Positions 11,566 to 59,783 of a stretch of DNA of 64,000 bases are shown here, in pieces (position 1 is the stretch's first letter; each line of letters starts with the position of its first letter). This stretch comes from a virus. The notes under the pieces were generated by a model. It had not been told where the DNA came from and made no database searches. It saw nothing but the letters and a program-made list of their open reading frames with translations. The stretch lies in the IMG/VR virus record IMGVR_UViG_3300045051_000531; one strand, written 5' to 3'. A program made the position numbers and the translations under genes.

Positions 11566-11588
11566 GCGCAGTTCCGGTACTGGTTGCG

Positions 11589-11622
11589 AGAACCCCGGTC
11601 GAAAGGCCGGGGTTCTTCGTTT
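11589..11622 (+). terminator. Intrinsic terminator after the capsid gene
   Basis: AGAACCCCGGTC-GAAA-GGCCGGGGTTCT followed by TCGTTT. Confidence 0.7.
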
Positions 11623-49440: not shown

Positions 49441-49625
49441 ACGGGGGTAGCGCAGTCTGGTAGCGCGTCGGGCTCTGTCATACGAGGTCTCCCATCCTTT
49501 AGCCGGGACAGTGGGATCTCAGACAACTTTAGGAGATGTTGAGACCGGGTCGGCTAAACCCGGTTTTGATGTTGCCTGAAGCGATGACCCGAAGGTCGGT
49601 GGTTCAAATCCATCACCCCGTACCA
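49441..49625 (+). tRNA. tRNA (probably Met-CAT) interrupted by a 108-nt insertion in the anticodon loop
   Basis: 5' half 49441-49475 (D-arm GCGC/GCGC, stem TCGGG, CTC); 3' half 49584-49625 (ATGA, CCCGA, AGGTC, T-arm GGTGG-TTCAAAT-CCATC, CCA). Confidence 0.8.
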
Positions 49626-49724
49626 TTCATGGAACCGCCAGACCACGTAGCCGCTGGAGCCGGTGCTCCAACGACCGCGTGGTCTGGCGGTATGTTTTTC
49701 TTTACCTATTACACAGGAGGTCAG

Positions 49725-50324
49725 ATGCGCTCAGATCTCGAAGCTTTGGTCGCCCGGTTCGCCGCCAAGGCGCACCTCGGCCAGGTCCGGAAGTACGTCG
49801 CGGCGCCGGAGATGGTGCCCTACATCTTCCACCCCGCCGCCGTCGCCGACATCGTCCGCGACTTCGGTGGAACGGAATCCATGATCTGCGCGGCGTGGCT
49901 CCACGACGTCGTCGAGGACACCCCGGTGACCTTGGCGGACATCGATAGGGAGTTCACGCGGGAATCCGGTCACGGCATCGCGGAGCTCGTCGGCTGGCTC
50001 ACCGATGTTGCCAGACCCAGCGATGGGAACCGTAAGGCTCGGGTCAAGCTGAACCGGGAGCACTCCTGGGCGGCCCCTGTGGAGGCCCAGGTCTGCAAGG
50101 TGGCGGACTGCATCCATAACACGTACAGGATCTACGTGCTGGCTCCCAAGTTCGCTCCGATCTTCATGGCCGAGATCAAGGAGCTCATGGGTGGTCTCGA
50201 TAAGGTCGACCCCAAAATCAAACAGGTCTGGTATGACATGACCGGAACCGATGCGGACGACTTCAAGTACGAGGTCGCATCGCCGGAAACCCGTCAGCTT
50301 ATCGGATCACTAACCGGGCCGTAA
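49725..50324 (+). CDS. HD-domain hydrolase, RelA/SpoT (Mesh1-like) family
   Basis: AHLGQVRK..VPYIFHPAAVA, AAWLHDVVEDT, VKVADCIHN-like motif (CKVADCIHN); AGGAGG SD before ATG 49725. Confidence 0.88.
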   Translation: MRSDLEALVARFAAKAHLGQVRKYVAAPEMVPYIFHPAAVADIVRDFGGTESMICAAWLHDVVEDTPVTLADIDREFTRESGHGIAELVGWLTDVARPSDGNRKARVKLNREHSWAAPVEAQVCKVADCIHNTYRIYVLAPKFAPIFMAEIKELMGGLDKVDPKIKQVWYDMTGTDADDFKYEVASPETRQLIGSLTGP

Positions 50325-51812: not shown

Positions 51813-51916
51813 TGCCGTGATCTGAGCTCTTTCTCATCTTTCCCTGCAGAGGGGCACCCGGATGGACCGGGTGCTAATGCCCCCGCGGTGGCCCGCGGAC
51901 CGTCCCAAGGCGGCTA

Positions 51917-51944: not shown

Positions 51945-51980
51945 TCCGTCGTTGACAACTAAACGCAATACCATGGTTAT

Positions 51981-52051
51981 GGCGGGGAGCCTCAGAGGTC
52001 GGCTGGTCTCATAAGCCAGCTTAGATGGTTCGACTCCATCCCCCGCAACCA
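51981..52051 (+). tRNA. tRNA-Met(CAT) with reduced D-arm and 1:72 mismatch
   Basis: GGCGGGG/CCCCGCA-A-CCA; loop CT-CAT-AA; T-arm GATGG-TTCGACT-CCATC. Confidence 0.75.
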
Positions 52052-52055
52052 CTTA

Positions 52056-52118
52056 GAGGCGCAGCGGCGTCAGGGTTACTTCTTGGAACGAAACACACCC
52101 TGGCTTCATTCTCGCCTC
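52056..52118 (+). ncRNA. Y RNA array unit 1 (minimal, stem module only)
   Basis: GAGGCG-CAGCG...GTTACTTC...ATTCT-CGCCTC; no tRNA-like domain. Confidence 0.7.
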
Positions 52119-52130
52119 GTTGACAACTTC

Positions 52131-52250
52131 GCCGGCAGCGGTGATCGGGTTACTTCTTTAGTAAAGAAGAGGTCGTTGGTTCGAGTCCAACCAGGGGCAA
52201 CCCTGTAGCTCAGTGGCAGAGCGCTAAACACCTGATCTTTATTCTCCGGC
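52131..52250 (+). ncRNA. yrlA: YrlA-like Y RNA unit 2 (tRNA mimic)
   Basis: Conserved stem plus T-arm GTTCGAGTC, closed acceptor hairpin, then D-arm TAGCTCAGTGGCAGAGC (permuted order). Confidence 0.85.
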
Positions 52251-52260
52251 TTTTAGCTTC

Positions 52261-52384
52261 GGCAGTAGCGGTGATTGGGGTTACTTCTCTGATAAAGAAA
52301 AGACCTGGGTTCGACTCCCAGCAGGGCTTCGGCTCTGTAGCTCAACGGTAGAGCGTAAAAACACCTCGATCTATATTCTCTGCC
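52261..52384 (+). ncRNA. yrlA: YrlA-like Y RNA unit 3
   Basis: GGCAG/CTGCC ends; T-arm GGTTCGACTCC; acceptor hairpin with TTCG loop; D-arm TAGCTCAACGGTAGAGC. Confidence 0.85.
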
Positions 52385-52395
52385 TTTTCAATTTC

Positions 52396-52519
52396 GGGCG
52401 CAGCGGTTCTAGAGTTACTTCTATCCAATCTGCTGGACCGGTTCGACTCCGGAAGGTCATAGACCTTAGTGTAACGGCAGCACAGCGGACCCAAAAGCCT
52501 CTAGGCAGTATTCTCGCCC
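52396..52519 (+). ncRNA. yrlA: YrlA-like Y RNA unit 4
   Basis: GGGCG/CGCCC ends; T-arm CCGGTTCGACTCCGG; D-arm TAGTGTAACGGCAGCAC. Confidence 0.82.
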
Positions 52520-52528
52520 TTGTTCTTC

Positions 52529-52657
52529 GGTGGCAGCGGTGGTCGCGTTACTTCTATACTAAAGAAAAGGTCGGTAGGTTCGACTCCTACCCCAGGGGGC
52601 CAGATCCCCTGGTAGCTCAGCGGTAGAGCGTAAAACACGCGGCTTATATTCTCCACC
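52529..52657 (+). ncRNA. yrlA: YrlA-like Y RNA unit 5
   Basis: GGTGG/CCACC ends; T-arm GTAGGTTCGACTCCTAC; D-arm TAGCTCAGCGGTAGAGC. Confidence 0.85.
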
Positions 52658-52666
52658 TTGTCTCTC

Positions 52667-52732
52667 GGTCGCAGCGGCGTCACGGTTACTTCTCTCATAA
52701 AGAAACAACCACCGTGGCGGCTATTCTCGACC
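52667..52732 (+). ncRNA. Y RNA array unit 6 (minimal)
   Basis: GGTCG-CAGCG...GTTACTTC...ATTCT-CGACC. Confidence 0.7.
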
Positions 52733-52741
52733 TTTCTCCTC

Positions 52742-52803
52742 GCTGGTAGCGGTGCCCCGGTTACTTCAGCCATACGAAACCACCGGTGCGATTATTCTCC
52801 AGC
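52742..52803 (+). ncRNA. Y RNA array unit 7 (minimal)
   Basis: GCTGG-TAGCG...GTTACTTC...ATTCT-CCAGC. Confidence 0.7.
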
Positions 52804-52812
52804 TTTTCACCC

Positions 52813-52846
52813 GAAGCCCGACGGTAACCCCGTCGGGTTTCTTTTT
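52813..52846 (+). terminator. Terminator between the Y RNA array and the Ro60 gene
   Basis: GAAGCCCGACGG...CCGTCGGGTTTC followed by TTTTT. Confidence 0.7.
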
Positions 52847-52859
52847 CGAAGGGAGCCCT

Positions 52860-54401
52860 ATGGGCAGGTTCGCAACAAATCCGGCGCTCGCCGCCGGTGC
52901 GGTTCGCGCCGCTGATACCACGAACGCGGCCGGAGGCCGCGCCTACGCCAACGACCCGAAGACGTCGCTGGCCATCCAGCTCGTGTCGAGCTTCGCCTCC
53001 GGTGACCACTACCGGGACGAGGCCGCCCAGCTCAAGGGTCTCCTGGACGCCGTCCAGAAGGTCCCCGATCTCCAGTGGGTCGCCAAGGCGGCGATCTATG
53101 CCCGCGACGTCATGGGCATGAGGACCACGAGCCACTTCGTGACGGCCTGCATCGCGGTCTTGGGCCACGGCCAGCCTTGGCTCAGGAAGTTCTACCAGCG
53201 CGTCGTCCTGCGCCCCGACGATATGTGCGAAGTGTTGGGGGCGTACTGGATGCTGAAGGGCCACACCGGGAAGGGCAAGACGGCGGTGCCGAACGCGCTG
53301 AAGCGCGGCTTCGCGGACCGCTTCGCCCAGCTCACCGGGTACGCCCTGGCGAAGTACCGCGGCGGTGGCCGCGCCGTCAAGCTGATCGACGTGGCCCGCT
53401 TGGTCCACGCCAAGGGCGACCTGGTCACCCAGCTCTGCAAGGGCACCCTGCCCCCGGCGGAGACCTGGGAGGTCGGGATCTCCGGCGCCGGCGATGCCGC
53501 GGCTCGTACCAAGGTCTGGGGCGACCTGCTCCGCACCGGCAAGCTGGGCTACATGGCCACGATGCGGAACCTCCGCAACATCGCCAAGGACGCCCCGGAT
53601 CACCTCGCAGCGGCCCTGGAGGTCATCCGTGACACGGAACGGATGCGCAAGGCCCGGGTGTTCCCGTTCCGCCTGTTCACGGCCTACCGGCTCTTCGAGA
53701 CCACTGAAGGTGCCGAAGGTCTGACCAGGGCCCAGATCCGCGAGATCCACGAGGCCCTCTCGGTGGCCCTGGACGCCTCGACAACCACGGTTCCTAAGTT
53801 CGAGGGCGACTCCTTGGTCGTCATCGACACCTCGGGGTCCATGGAGTCCACGGTGTCCCAGAAGTCGTCGGTCCGCTGCGTCGAGGCAGCGGCGGTCATG
53901 GGGGCCACGGTGCGCCGCCAGAACCCGAAGTGCGACATGGCGATCTTCGCGGACACCTCGAAGTACATCACCACGGGCCCCGCGGCCCGCCCGGTGGTGG
54001 ACGTCGTCGCAGGGGTCCTCGGCAAGATCGGTGACGTCGGGCACGGCACCAACATGAGCTCGATCTTCGGGCTCATCGATCTGGCGCAGTTCAGGCGCAT
54101 CTTCGTGATGTCCGACATGCAGAGCTGGTACGGGGACGAGACTGCGGCCACGAACTGGCTGAACAGGAACCCCAAGAACCACCTCTACGTGTGGAACCTG
54201 CATGGCGACGGGTCCACCCTGGCGGCCCCGGAGAACAAGCGGGTCATCCAGCTCGGCGGGTTCAGCGACAGGATCTGGGATACGATCCCGATGCTGGAGC
54301 AGGGCCCCGCAGGTCTGGTCCAGGCGATCGACGCCTGGGACCCCTGGGCGAAGAAGGCGGCCGATGCCGCCGAGGATCCCGGGGCGGACCCGGTTTCCTG
54401 A
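52860..54401 (+). CDS. rsr: Ro60-related TROVE + vWA protein
   Basis: TTNAAGGRAY, KAAIYARDVMGMRT, YMATMRNLRNI, RVFPFRLFTAY; vWA MIDAS motifs VVIDTSGSM, HGTN, VMSDMQ; adjacent Y RNAs. Confidence 0.93.
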   Translation: MGRFATNPALAAGAVRAADTTNAAGGRAYANDPKTSLAIQLVSSFASGDHYRDEAAQLKGLLDAVQKVPDLQWVAKAAIYARDVMGMRTTSHFVTACIAVLGHGQPWLRKFYQRVVLRPDDMCEVLGAYWMLKGHTGKGKTAVPNALKRGFADRFAQLTGYALAKYRGGGRAVKLIDVARLVHAKGDLVTQLCKGTLPPAETWEVGISGAGDAAARTKVWGDLLRTGKLGYMATMRNLRNIAKDAPDHLAAALEVIRDTERMRKARVFPFRLFTAYRLFETTEGAEGLTRAQIREIHEALSVALDASTTTVPKFEGDSLVVIDTSGSMESTVSQKSSVRCVEAAAVMGATVRRQNPKCDMAIFADTSKYITTGPAARPVVDVVAGVLGKIGDVGHGTNMSSIFGLIDLAQFRRIFVMSDMQSWYGDETAATNWLNRNPKNHLYVWNLHGDGSTLAAPENKRVIQLGGFSDRIWDTIPMLEQGPAGLVQAIDAWDPWAKKAADAAEDPGADPVS

Positions 54402-54422: not shown

Positions 54423-54458
54423 GACGACGCCGTGGTGATCCCACGGCGTCGTCGTTTT
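54423..54458 (+). terminator. Terminator after rsr
   Basis: 13-bp stem GACGACGCCGTGG/CCACGGCGTCGTC followed by GTTTT. Confidence 0.7.
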
Positions 54459-54478
54459 CACAGACGAAAGGAGCCACT

Positions 54479-58191: not shown

Positions 58192-58440
58192 ATGCGTGAT
58201 TTATCCGCCGTGATCGACAAGCTGCTCGAAACGATCCCGAAGTCTGAGAAGTCGTTGATCGCTGAGCTCGACGACATCAAGTCGAGTTACGAGTTCGCGT
58301 CGCCGGAACTCCGCTCGATGTGGTGGCGTGAGGCCGCCGAGATCCTGGCGAACGCCATGAAGACCCCGACCAAAGACTGGGAGTGGGACTGCTGCGACAT
58401 CTTCGCTGACAAAAAGTTCCCCAGGGTGACGGCTTCATGA
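58192..58440 (+). CDS. Hypothetical protein
   Basis: 82 aa, GAGGA SD, ATGA coupled to the helicase. Confidence 0.75.
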   Translation: MRDLSAVIDKLLETIPKSEKSLIAELDDIKSSYEFASPELRSMWWREAAEILANAMKTPTKDWEWDCCDIFADKKFPRVTAS

Positions 58441-59783
58441 AAGACCTCTTCGCACCGGACCCCAAGCCGCCGGCGCAGAAGCCGGGAGACGGGGTCACCT
58501 TGTCTCCAGGTCAGGATGAAGCCGCGAAGCGCGTCCTGGCTCCACAGGGTCGGGTCTCCATCCTGACGGGTCCAGCTGGTTGTGGGAAATCCACGATCAT
58601 CAACCATCTCCGCGAAACGGTGCCCTGCACGATCGCCGCGACGACTGGCAAAGCCGCGATGCACATCGACGGCTGCACCGTGGACTCCCTGTTCTGTTTC
58701 AACCGGGACAACTACCGGGTCTGGAACGAGGACTTCCTGACGTACGTGATGAGGGAAGCCGCGGATCTCATCATCATCGACGAGGCCTCCATGATCGGGA
58801 AAAGGATGGCCAATCTGATCTACGAGATCGCCGTGGCCCACAAAAAGCGGCTCCTTCTCGTCGGTGACTGGGCCCAGGCCCGTCCGGTCAAGGATGACTG
58901 GATCACGAACTCCAAGATGATGGCGGACTACGACCTCATCAAGTTGACGGAGTGCCACCGGCAGAGCGAGGGCCCCTACCTGGAGGCCCTGAACGATGTC
59001 AGGCTCGGGCATATCTCCGAAGCCACGGAAGCCCTGTTCAAGTCGCGTGTCGGTTTGAAGCCGCCGGAGGGCAGCCACGTCATCCGGGCCTTCGCGACCA
59101 ACGCGAAAGCTGACGCCTTCAACCAGGCCAACCTGTGGAGGCTCGTCGCCCTCGGTGGCGCCACGGCGTTCCGGCTCTTCGCGACATACCACGATGCCCG
59201 GGATCCCAAGAAGCAGGCCGATAAGCCGCGGGACGAGGGCTACAAGCTGGACGCCATCGAAGCCACGAACTTCGCTCACGGGGAACCCTTCGCGCTGGGG
59301 TGCCGCGTCGTCTGCACCTACAACGAACCCGAGTTCAAGTCTTACGTCAACGGTGACACCGGGGACCTCATCGGGGGATCCTGCCAGGACGGCAGATCCC
59401 TGCAGTCCGCGCTGGAGGCCTTCGCGAAGAACGAGACTCCGTTTCGGATCGAGGCTCTCCAGATCAAGCTGGACCGGGGCCCCGTGGTCCTCGTCAGGAC
59501 CCTGGAGCGGGAGAAGAAGGATGCCCTGGACCGCGTCCAGGACGTCATCACCGGGTTCCCGCTGCGTCTCGGTTACGGGATCACGATCCATAAGAGCCAG
59601 GGCATGACGGTGCAAGCCGCACAAGTCGACCTGGAGTCCTTACTGGCGTTCCCCGATAAGGAGAGCCGCCACGGACTCGCGTATGTTGCCCTGAGCCGAA
59701 CCAAGACGCTCGAAGGGCTCTATCTCCGCAACTGGGCCCCAGAAGCGATCTTCTGCGACCCCGAGATCAGAGGATTCCTATGA
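58437..59783 (+). CDS. Pif1/RecD-like SF1B DNA helicase
   Basis: TGPAGCGKS, IIDEASM, VGDWAQ, LGYGITIHKSQGMT, YVALSR. Confidence 0.93.
   Translation: MKDLFAPDPKPPAQKPGDGVTLSPGQDEAAKRVLAPQGRVSILTGPAGCGKSTIINHLRETVPCTIAATTGKAAMHIDGCTVDSLFCFNRDNYRVWNEDFLTYVMREAADLIIIDEASMIGKRMANLIYEIAVAHKKRLLLVGDWAQARPVKDDWITNSKMMADYDLIKLTECHRQSEGPYLEALNDVRLGHISEATEALFKSRVGLKPPEGSHVIRAFATNAKADAFNQANLWRLVALGGATAFRLFATYHDARDPKKQADKPRDEGYKLDAIEATNFAHGEPFALGCRVVCTYNEPEFKSYVNGDTGDLIGGSCQDGRSLQSALEAFAKNETPFRIEALQIKLDRGPVVLVRTLEREKKDALDRVQDVITGFPLRLGYGITIHKSQGMTVQAAQVDLESLLAFPDKESRHGLAYVALSRTKTLEGLYLRNWAPEAIFCDPEIRGFL

What the first reader, a model, noticed from the sequence alone, without database searches (positions are those of the whole stretch)
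52056..54401. Tandem array of seven Y RNAs (four tRNA mimics, three minimal) upstream of a phage Ro60/Rsr gene
Seen: seven units share N5-(C/T)AGCGG...GTTACTTC...ATTCT-N5'. The terminal 5 bp differ in every unit but are always complementary (GCCGG/CCGGC, GGCAG/CTGCC, GGGCG/CGCCC, GGTGG/CCACC, GGTCG/CGACC, GCTGG/CCAGC, AGGCG/CGCCT), and a second helix also covaries. Units 2-5 carry a permuted tRNA module (T-arm, closed acceptor hairpin, D-arm); units 1, 6 and 7 lack it. Units are separated by 9-12 nt, mostly pyrimidine-rich linkers, and a terminator precedes the TROVE-vWA gene. Established: YrlA RNAs are tRNA mimics encoded next to rsr, and Rsr/Y RNA is linked to PNPase-mediated decay and to RtcB repair operons induced by tRNA damage. 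Inference: a processed, diversified Y RNA library on one Ro60 scaffold, possibly acting as decoys or adaptors against host tRNA-targeting defences; the minimal units could be competitors or gates.
Basis: partly seen in the sequence, partly recalled or inferred. Interest (0 to 1): 0.88.

Follow-up and report, generated by a model that had tools for sequence, protein, structure and literature searches.

The report
Seven-gene Y RNA array before phage Ro60
A 191-kb uncultured phage carries seven small structured RNA genes (four tRNA look-alikes, three short hairpins) in a row in front of its Ro60 RNA-binding protein gene; it is a real but enlarged version of a known Ro60/Y-RNA arrangement, and similar arrays of up to six units turned up in many related loci.

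Summary
Seven units lie at 52057-52803, each with the pattern N5-YAGCGG-helix-GUUACUUC...AUUCU-N5'. U2-U5 carry a T arm, a closed acceptor hairpin and a D arm; U1, U6 and U7 do not. An intrinsic terminator and a TROVE+vWA Ro60 gene follow.

They are Y RNAs. Rfam YrlA matches U2, U3 and U5 below its cut-off. Two covariance models built here find the same two RNA classes beside Ro60 genes in 210 of 242 loci from phages, metagenomes and bacterial MAGs. Every listed hit of the short-unit model is on the Ro60 strand. Covariation is very strong: 96% of cells paired, against 44-50% in slid controls.

Mixed arrays of 3-6 units are common, so seven is only the largest seen, not a new kind. Published cases have 2-4 Y RNAs, with one tRNA-like and one hairpin-like RNA cut from a single precursor in M. 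smegmatis.

New details:
- the Ro-binding motif is divergent (YAGCGG, not GNCGAA);
- UUACUUC is near-invariant across the family;
- the "V" hairpin has anticodon-arm geometry.

The decoy idea is untested, and the phage has no RtcB. Transcription, processing and Ro60 binding could not be tested here.

The parts
51845..51914 (+). Candidate type-P5 twister self-cleaving ribozyme; predicted cleavage between U51875 and A51876. It may separate the ncRNA array from upstream mRNA.
   Evidence: Rfam RF02684 31.8 bits (cut-off 37.6), E 2e-4 for the 1.3-kb search and 6.9e-6 for the genome. GAGGG, UAA and UCCCAAG are present. Pseudoknot T2 is kept by a GG/CC double change, read directly from the sequence. 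Not found in 5 related phage records.
51978..52051 (+). tRNA-Met(CAU)-like gene with a G1xA72 mismatch, a stunted D arm and an encoded CCA, 5 nt upstream of U1.
   Evidence: ARAGORN. Rfam tRNA 26.8 bits, below the cut-off of 29. tRNA-Met(CAU) genes lie inside or beside Y RNA arrays in L179 and L172.
52057..52117 (+). Y RNA unit 1, minimal class (61 nt).
   Evidence: R1 32.4 bits; R2 57.3 bits, E 3.7e-12.
52131..52250 (+). Y RNA unit 2, YrlA-like tRNA mimic (120 nt); hairpin loop UUAGUAA, acceptor hairpin closed by GCAA.
   Evidence: Rfam YrlA 42.7 bits, E 8.2e-8, full model length.
52261..52384 (+). Y RNA unit 3, YrlA-like tRNA mimic (124 nt); hairpin loop CUGAUAA, acceptor hairpin closed by UUCG.
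   Evidence: Rfam YrlA 36.1 bits for the tRNA-like core.
52396..52519 (+). Y RNA unit 4, diverged tRNA mimic (124 nt); T arm, 6-bp closed hairpin and D arm, with a different first hairpin.
   Evidence: R1 39.6 bits, E 2.8e-8; fold.
52529..52657 (+). Y RNA unit 5, YrlA-like tRNA mimic (129 nt); hairpin loop AUACUAA, 8-bp acceptor-like hairpin.
   Evidence: Rfam YrlA 26.1 bits.
52667..52732 (+). Y RNA unit 6, minimal class (66 nt); apical loop CUCAUAA, identical to the anticodon loop of the upstream tRNA-Met-like gene.
   Evidence: R2 58.3 bits, E 2e-12.
52742..52803 (+). Y RNA unit 7, minimal class (62 nt).
   Evidence: R2 68.3 bits, E 3.2e-15.
52813..52848 (+). Intrinsic terminator (12-bp stem, T tract) between the array and Ro60. 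Only 11 nt separate it from the start codon, so Ro60 mRNA probably comes from read-through (inferred).
   Evidence: sequence.
52860..54401 (+). Ro60/Rsr orthologue (513 aa; TROVE ring plus vWA), with an AGGGAG ribosome-binding site at 52850-55.
   Evidence: Pfam TROVE 5.9e-25, vWA_Ro60 6e-7. Homologues are 25-51% identical.
54423..54459 (+). 13-bp GC-rich hairpin followed by GTTTTC; likely terminator after Ro60.
   Evidence: Read from the sequence; not listed by the consensus scan because the T run is short.

Best explanation
The locus is a polycistronic non-coding RNA gene cluster. It holds a tRNA-Met-like element plus seven Y RNAs and lies on the same strand as a phage Ro60 gene. All seven RNAs share one protein-binding module: a 5-bp terminal stem, a bulged pyrimidine, A-U and G-C pairs, a conserved GCGG/AUU internal loop, a second helix, and a junction of G-UUACUUC on one side and AAACAC on the other. 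I infer that this module binds the phage Ro60, as the equivalent stem does in bacterial and animal Y RNAs. Four units add a circularly permuted tRNA mimic made of an anticodon-arm-like hairpin, a 5-nt variable loop, a T arm, a closed acceptor hairpin and a D arm. Three are bare hairpins of the YrlB/Yrn2 type. The precursor is probably cut in the short U-rich linkers and at the tRNA, then trimmed back to the Ro60-protected stems. The terminator lets many RNAs but little Ro60 mRNA be made. The resulting set of Ro60 RNPs would gate the Ro60 cavity (minimal units). Through the tRNA-like modules it would tether Ro60 to host tRNA- or RNA-binding enzymes, most plausibly PNPase, so that the phage redirects host RNA decay. 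Structure, conservation and synteny are shown here. Transcription, processing, Ro60 binding and PNPase recruitment are inferred.
For: Seven units against 0 expected. TROVE+vWA gene immediately downstream. Rfam YrlA matches U2, U3 and U5, with E down to 8e-8. Model R1 (long units) and model R2 (short units) find the same two classes in 210 of 242 Ro60 loci, mostly within 1 kb upstream; every listed R2 hit is on the Ro60 strand. Covariation: 96.1% of cells paired against 44-50% when partners are slid, and 30 of 33 pairs show double changes. For the core module the figures are 93.1% against 43-57%, with 16 of 16 pairs. UUACUUC is at least 97% invariant in 107 distinct units. Genuine tRNA genes are interleaved in arrays of other phages, which points to co-processing. 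Published precedents: M. smegmatis YrlA and YrlB are cut from one precursor upstream of rsr, and every studied species has one tRNA-like and one hairpin Y RNA (PMC4201824). Thermus phage phiLo Ro60 binds two upstream Y-like RNAs and host PNPase (PMC12135203).
Against: There are no expression, end-mapping or binding data. No sigma-70-type promoter was found. The canonical GNCGAAN0-1G Ro-binding motif is not literally present. No unit reaches the Rfam YrlA cut-off (42.7 against 69 bits). A global MFE fold of the whole precursor cross-pairs several units, so independent folding is not shown thermodynamically. The CM-derived alignments are fitted to the model structure, which inflates pairing percentages somewhat.
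Confidence: 0.8

Rival explanations
1. Decoy or sensor library. The units display different anticodon-like loops on a Ro60 scaffold to soak up, or to report, host anticodon nucleases or other enzymes that target anticodon loops.
For: The hairpin after UUAC has anticodon-arm geometry. In 32 of 37 distinct long units the loop is 7 nt, with U at loop position 2 in 28 of 32, a purine at position 6 in 29 of 32 and A at position 7 in 29 of 32. A 5-nt AGGUC-type linker then leads into the T arm. The middle triplets differ between units: AGU, GAU, ACU and CAU here, and mostly NNU (the ANN-decoder type) across the family. ARAGORN and Rfam call some units tRNAs. The phage carries many tRNA genes.
Against: The hairpin stems (CUUCU/AGAAR) are conserved rather than copied from different tRNAs. 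A at the wobble position (AGU, ACU) is unusual for real bacterial tRNAs. U4 and the minimal units lack a clean anticodon-like loop. The triplets show no relation to the phage's own tRNA set. No RtcB or RNA ligase is present for a repair branch. The models were built from units that have these loop features, so the family statistics are partly biased. There is no experimental link.
Confidence: 0.12
2. The array is mainly a cis-acting leader of the Ro60 mRNA. It would be an autoregulatory site where Ro60 binds its own upstream RNA to tune terminator read-through, rather than a set of stable trans-acting RNAs.
For: The terminator sits 11 nt before the Ro60 start codon with no room for a separate promoter, so Ro60 expression must pass through the array.
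Against: In some related loci units lie downstream of Ro60 or more than 1 kb away (L264, L193, L190). Real tRNA genes are interleaved. Bacterial counterparts accumulate as stable Ro60-bound RNAs (PMC4201824).
Confidence: 0.05
3. The units are tandem tRNA genes or decayed tRNA pseudogenes, which give false YrlA-like hits. This is the dimeric-tRNA artefact flagged by Chen et al. 2014.
For: R1 also hits junctions of true tandem tRNA genes elsewhere in the window at about 25-30 bits.
Against: ARAGORN finds no tRNA inside 52057-52803. The acceptor position is a closed hairpin. The 5' and 3' ends pair with each other with compensatory changes in every unit. Three units have no tRNA part at all yet keep the same outer module.
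Confidence: 0.02

Closest known systems
Mycobacterium smegmatis YrlA + YrlB upstream of rsr (Chen et al. 2014, PMC4201824)
   Same: One tRNA-like Y RNA (V, T, closed acceptor and D arms, with YUAY before V) plus a hairpin-type Y RNA. Both lie upstream of Ro60 on the same strand and are cut from one precursor.
   Different: Two RNAs there, seven here (4+3). Here the 5' motif is YAGCGG, not GNCGAAN0-1G, and UUACUUC is invariant. The V hairpin looks like an anticodon arm followed by a 5-nt variable loop. The host is a phage. Scores are below the Rfam YrlA cut-off.
Thermus phage phiLo Ro60 with Yrl1 and Yrl2 (NAR 2025, PMC12135203)
   Same: A phage-encoded Ro60 with Y-like RNA genes directly upstream. 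That protein binds them and host PNPase.
   Different: Two RNAs, defined by a CGAA motif. Its Ro60 is only about 26% identical to this one. No array and no two-class structure is described.
Deinococcus radiodurans Yrn1/Yrn2 (four small RNAs a-d upstream of rsr) and the RYPER complex
   Same: Several Y RNAs are encoded upstream of Ro60. One is tRNA-like and one is a long hairpin. The Y RNA tethers Ro60 to PNPase.
   Different: A different lineage of Y RNA, with the tRNA-like parts in another orientation (PMC4201824). It is chromosomal and stress-induced.
Rfam RF02553 (YrlA), including mycobacteriophage members
   Same: U2 aligns over the whole model, covering stem, T arm, closed acceptor and D arm.
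   Different: The best score is 42.7 bits against a cut-off of 69. No unit in 15 related array loci reaches the cut-off either. A 14-nt hairpin is inserted relative to the model.

Membership tests
YrlA-type bacterial/phage Y RNA (Chen et al. 2014; Rfam RF02553) | Encoded within 4 kb of a Ro60/TROVE gene and on the same strand | tested here: met
   The array ends 57 nt before the Ro60 start codon and is on the same strand. The same holds in 210 of 242 related loci.
YrlA-type bacterial/phage Y RNA (Chen et al. 2014; Rfam RF02553) | T-arm-like and D-arm-like stem-loops with a closed 'acceptor' hairpin between them | tested here: met
   Present in U2-U5. These helices covary across the family (helices 4-6). 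Absent from U1, U6 and U7, which are therefore not YrlA-type.
YrlA-type bacterial/phage Y RNA (Chen et al. 2014; Rfam RF02553) | Conserved YUAY at the start of the V region | tested here: met
   UUAC is present in all seven units. UUACUUC is at least 97% conserved in 107 distinct family members.
YrlA-type bacterial/phage Y RNA (Chen et al. 2014; Rfam RF02553) | GNCGAAN0-1G motif near the 5' end (putative Ro60 contact) | tested here: not met
   The window units have YAGCGG(Y)G. The family consensus is Y-AG-YG-A, and some relatives have AGCGAA, which overlaps the canonical motif. This looks like a diverged version, not a literal match.
YrlA-type bacterial/phage Y RNA (Chen et al. 2014; Rfam RF02553) | Score at or above the Rfam gathering threshold (69 bits) | tested here: not met
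   42.7, 36.1 and 26.1 bits for U2, U3 and U5. There were no YrlA hits at the gathering threshold in the window or in 15 related loci.
Y RNA in general | The 5' and 3' ends pair into a stem with a bulged helix, followed by an internal loop or effector domain | tested here: met
   Terminal 5-bp stem, a bulged C/U, then A-U and G-C pairs in all units. All 7 pairs of helix 1 and all pairs of helix 2 show compensatory changes.
Y RNA in general | Bound and stabilised by Ro60 | not testable with these tools
   Needs EMSA or co-immunoprecipitation. Binding is inferred only from synteny and the conserved module.
Twister ribozyme, type P5 (RF02684) - for the upstream element | Conserved core nucleotides, P1/P2/P4 stems and T1/T2 pseudoknots; score above the cut-off | tested here: inconclusive
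   31.8 bits against a cut-off of 37.6. The core nucleotides and a compensatory T2 are visible in the sequence. Self-cleavage is untested.

The most novel reading that the evidence does not exclude
The long units are not just 'YrlA with a V arm'. They are complete, circularly permuted tRNA mimics opened at the position 26/27 junction. Each shows a different ANN-decoder-type anticodon loop (NU-NNU-AA) on a common Ro60 handle. A phage expanding them to a seven-member set would then be building a panel of anticodon-loop baits for host enzymes (anticodon nucleases, or the t6A and other modification machinery). Ro60/PNPase would dispose of, or signal, what is caught.
Probability: 0.15. Interest if true: 0.8.

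Novelty: new variant of a known kind. Interest (0 to 1): 0.5.

Why it matters
Ro60/Y RNA particles are conserved from bacteria to humans, yet their function in bacteria and phages is poorly understood.

This locus and the roughly 200 relatives found here show three things. First, a large clade of phage and bacterial Ro60 genes comes with multi-gene arrays of two conserved Y RNA classes. Second, these RNAs escape the curated Rfam model. Third, parts of them can be mis-called as tRNAs.

The census gives a ready comparative data set: two covariance models, an invariant UUACUUC junction and an anticodon-arm-like hairpin. That data set can be used to ask what the effector modules recruit and why phages multiply them. 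For this window alone the result is incremental, since it is simply the largest array in a continuum.

Tried and rejected
1. Close relatives by DNA: megablast against phage records found nothing. A motif scan of viral contigs (CAGCGG-N7-10-GTTACTTC) gave only single, apparently chance matches.

2. A single-protein locus search found no relatives. An alignment-based search was needed.

Only P0005's contig was reached, through GTDB (L286). It has about three diverged units (YGGCGG...GAUACUUC), not an orthologous seven-unit array.

5. I tested the idea that distinct stems keep units folding independently. A global MFE fold of the 873-nt precursor cross-pairs several units, so the idea is not supported by thermodynamics alone.

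6. Link to RNA repair: the phage genome has no RtcB, Rnl2-type RNA ligase or CCA-adding enzyme.

7. A sigma-70 promoter scan found none. The repeated CGTTGACAACT (51950 and 52118) has no usable -10 element and occurs nowhere else in the window.

8. Twister as a family trait: absent from 5 related phage records.

9. The tandem-tRNA artefact was rejected on structure.

10. Two reviews on bacterial Y RNAs (PMC10870794, PMC6047535) are not held, so the claim that larger arrays are unpublished rests only on the papers I could search.
Full report
**Observation.** The stretch 52057-52803 holds seven units, each built as N5-YAGCGG-helix 2-GUUACUUC-...-AUUCU-N5'. Coordinates and lengths are U1 52057-52117 (61 nt), U2 52131-52250 (120), U3 52261-52384 (124), U4 52396-52519 (124), U5 52529-52657 (129), U6 52667-52732 (66) and U7 52742-52803 (62).
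- AGCGG-N7-10-GTTACTTC occurs seven times in the 64-kb window, against 0.00 expected from 100 shuffles.
- Linkers are 9-13 nt and pyrimidine-rich.
- A strong intrinsic terminator (52813-52848) follows U7.
- The gene at 52860-54401 encodes a 513-aa TROVE + vWA_Ro60 protein.
- The window belongs to a complete 191.5-kb virus record with direct terminal repeats.

**Identity.**
- At relaxed thresholds Rfam's YrlA model aligns end to end with U2 (42.7 bits, E 8e-8). It also matches U3 and U5, but all stay under the 69-bit cut-off. Nothing is reported at gathering thresholds.
- U2-U5 contain, in order: a hairpin after UUAC, a T arm, a closed hairpin in the acceptor position (GCAA, UUCG, AUA or 5-nt loops) and a D arm. 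This is the permuted tRNA-like module that defines YrlA (PMC4201824).
- U1, U6 and U7 keep only the outer module and a small apical hairpin.
- ARAGORN finds no tRNA inside the array, so the dimeric-tRNA artefact does not apply.

**Relatives.** It has many homologues at 30-40% identity. An alignment of 20 homologues (A1) retrieved 80 viral loci, 80 metagenome loci and 80 GTDB genome/MAG loci. I built two covariance models:
- R1, from U2, U3 and U5 with a hand-set structure.
- R2, from nine minimal units of this and four other phages.

R1 recovers all seven window units. Its only other full-length hits in the window are junctions of true tandem tRNA genes.

Across 242 loci, 210 have at least one unit. 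Every listed R2 hit is on the Ro60 strand, and most units lie within about 1 kb upstream.

| Set | Loci with 1 / 2 / 3 / 4 / 5 / 6 / 7 units |
|---|---|
| Viral loci plus the window and L002 | 32 / 8 / 17 / 6 / 6 / 4 / 1 |
| Metagenome loci | 31 / 12 / 15 / 8 / 2 / 3 / 0 |
| Genome and MAG loci | 20 / 18 / 15 / 8 / 1 / 3 / 0 |

The single seven-unit locus is the window. Some loci are duplicates of the same phage, and a few R1 partial hits in the genome set may be real tRNAs. Mixed long-plus-short arrays with 8-19-nt linkers are therefore a family trait in both phages and bacteria (Verrucomicrobiota, Saprospiraceae and others). Seven is the top of a continuum. The closest reachable relative (L286, 49% Ro60 identity) has about three diverged units with YGGCGG and GAUACUUC, so the expansion to seven is lineage-specific.

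**Structure support.**
- On 37 distinct long units, 96.1% of cells pair, against 44-50% when partners are slid. Thirty of 33 pairs show double (compensatory) changes, and no shuffle reaches the observed values.
- On 107 distinct units aligned to the core model, 93.1% pair against 43-57%, and all 16 pairs show double changes.
- These alignments are fitted to the models, so the percentages lean high. The margin is nevertheless very large.
- The family consensus is nnnGG-u-AG-ugA-[helix 2]-G-UUACUUC ... AAAAAcaC-[helix 2']-UUuCUC-nnnn, with UUACUUC at least 97% invariant.
- The canonical GNCGAAN0-1G motif is not literally present. Relatives with AGCGAA bridge the two forms. The window and L286 share a G in place of the family's A (AGCGG).

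**The hairpin after UUAC.** Chen et al. call this region the V arm. In this family it has anticodon-arm geometry:
- a stem of 5-6 bp;
- a 7-nt loop in 32 of 37 distinct long units;
- U at loop position 2 in 28 of 32;
- a purine at position 6 in 29 of 32;
- A at position 7 in 29 of 32;
- then a 5-nt linker, most often AGGUC, leading into the T stem, exactly as a class I variable loop does.

The stem itself covaries (helix 3). The middle triplets vary: AGU, GAU and ACU in U2, U3 and U5, CAU in U6, and mostly NNU elsewhere. ARAGORN calls several such units tRNA-Asn or tRNA-Ile, and Rfam's tRNA model passes its cut-off on one. The models were built from units with these features, so some ascertainment bias is likely. 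U4 and most minimal units do not show a clean anticodon-like loop.

**Surroundings.**
- A tRNA-Met(CAU)-like gene sits 5 nt upstream of U1 (51978-52051). It has a G1xA72 mismatch, a stunted D arm and an encoded CCA. Rfam scores it at 26.8 bits, below the cut-off.
- tRNA-Met(CAU) genes also lie within or beside arrays in L179 and L172. L179 shows the same G1xA72 mismatch. Ordinary tRNA genes (Glu, Pro) are interleaved in arrays of L161 and L149. This suggests shared tRNA-type processing.
- At 51845-51914 there is a candidate type-P5 twister ribozyme: 31.8 bits against a cut-off of 37.6, core nucleotides present, and pseudoknot T2 kept by a GG/CC double change. It is absent from five related phages.
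- No sigma-70 promoter was found.
- The phage genome has no RtcB, Rnl2-type ligase or CCA-adding enzyme.
- Neighbouring genes include an HD_4 hydrolase and a superfamily-1 helicase; the rest have no Pfam match.

**Mechanism.** The best-supported reading is a co-transcribed precursor that is cut into seven Y RNAs, all of which bind the phage Ro60 through the shared bulged stem and internal loop.
- Minimal units would act as gate-only partners.
- tRNA-like units would act as tethers to host tRNA- or RNA-binding enzymes, most plausibly PNPase.
- The analogies are the Deinococcus and Salmonella RYPER complex and Thermus phage phiLo, whose Ro60 binds two upstream Y-like RNAs and host PNPase (PMC4201824, PMC12135203).
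- The terminator 11 nt before the Ro60 start codon implies that Ro60 is made by read-through, giving an excess of RNA over protein.
- Everything beyond structure, conservation and synteny is inference.
- The decoy hypothesis remains possible but untested.

**Novelty.** The kind is known. Bacteria studied so far have two to four Y RNAs, including one tRNA-like and one hairpin type, and M. smegmatis cuts its two from a single precursor (PMC4201824). A phage example with two RNAs has been characterised (PMC12135203). What is new:
- the scale (seven units; arrays of 3-6 are common);
- a divergent sub-family that Rfam misses;
- a conserved minimal class;
- the invariant UUACUUC junction;
- the anticodon-arm-like hairpin.

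I found no paper describing such arrays in the library I could search. Two reviews were not available.

**Earlier notes of this scan.** Other first-stage notes on the same stretch also mention anticodon-like loops. My family-wide count partly tests that.

Noticed in passing
window 51845-51914 (+): Candidate type-P5 twister self-cleaving ribozyme, 64 nt upstream of the tRNA-like gene. It scores 31.8 bits (cut-off 37.6), has the core nucleotides and keeps pseudoknot T2 through a GG/CC double change. Predicted cleavage is at 51875/51876. A weaker second hit (22.3 bits) lies at about window 11567-11610.
   Followed up: partly
window 51978-52051 (+); L179:1570-1647; L172:2937-3013: tRNA-Met(CAU)-like gene with a G1xA72 mismatch, a very small D arm and an encoded CCA, directly before the array. 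L179 has a tRNA-Met with the same G1xA72 mismatch inside its Y RNA array, followed by a tmRNA gene. L172 has one beside a short unit. The U6 apical loop (CUCAUAA) equals this tRNA's anticodon loop.
   Followed up: partly
window 51950-51960 and 52118-52128 (+): The exact 11-mer CGTTGACAACT occurs only at these two places in the window: before the tRNA-like gene and in the U1-U2 linker. The 29 nt ending at each copy are 72% alike. This could be a trace of a segmental duplication or a shared signal. It contains TTGACA but has no usable -10 element.
   Followed up: partly
L161:3483-3558, L149:3444-3520 and other related loci: Ordinary tRNA genes (Glu, Pro) sit between Y RNA units in arrays of other phages. 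Several Y RNA units are themselves called tRNA-Asn or tRNA-Ile by ARAGORN (L176, L144, L193), and one is called a tRNA by Rfam (L196:3385-3446). This is an annotation pitfall.
   Followed up: partly
L264:4712-6249, L193:5688-5808, L190:5419-5556: In a few loci Y RNA units lie downstream of the Ro60 gene instead of upstream.
   Followed up: no
window 49536-50324 (+): HD_4 (RelA/SpoT-type HD hydrolase) gene 2.5 kb upstream. The four other + strand ORFs between it and Ro60, and four after Ro60, have no Pfam match. A superfamily-1 helicase (AAA_30) gene lies at 58437-59783.
   Followed up: no
L286:2369-2470: The closest reachable relative has a unit that starts normally (UAGCGG...GUUACUUC, with a T arm) but shows no obvious matching 3' stem. 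It may be a broken or rearranged unit.
   Followed up: no
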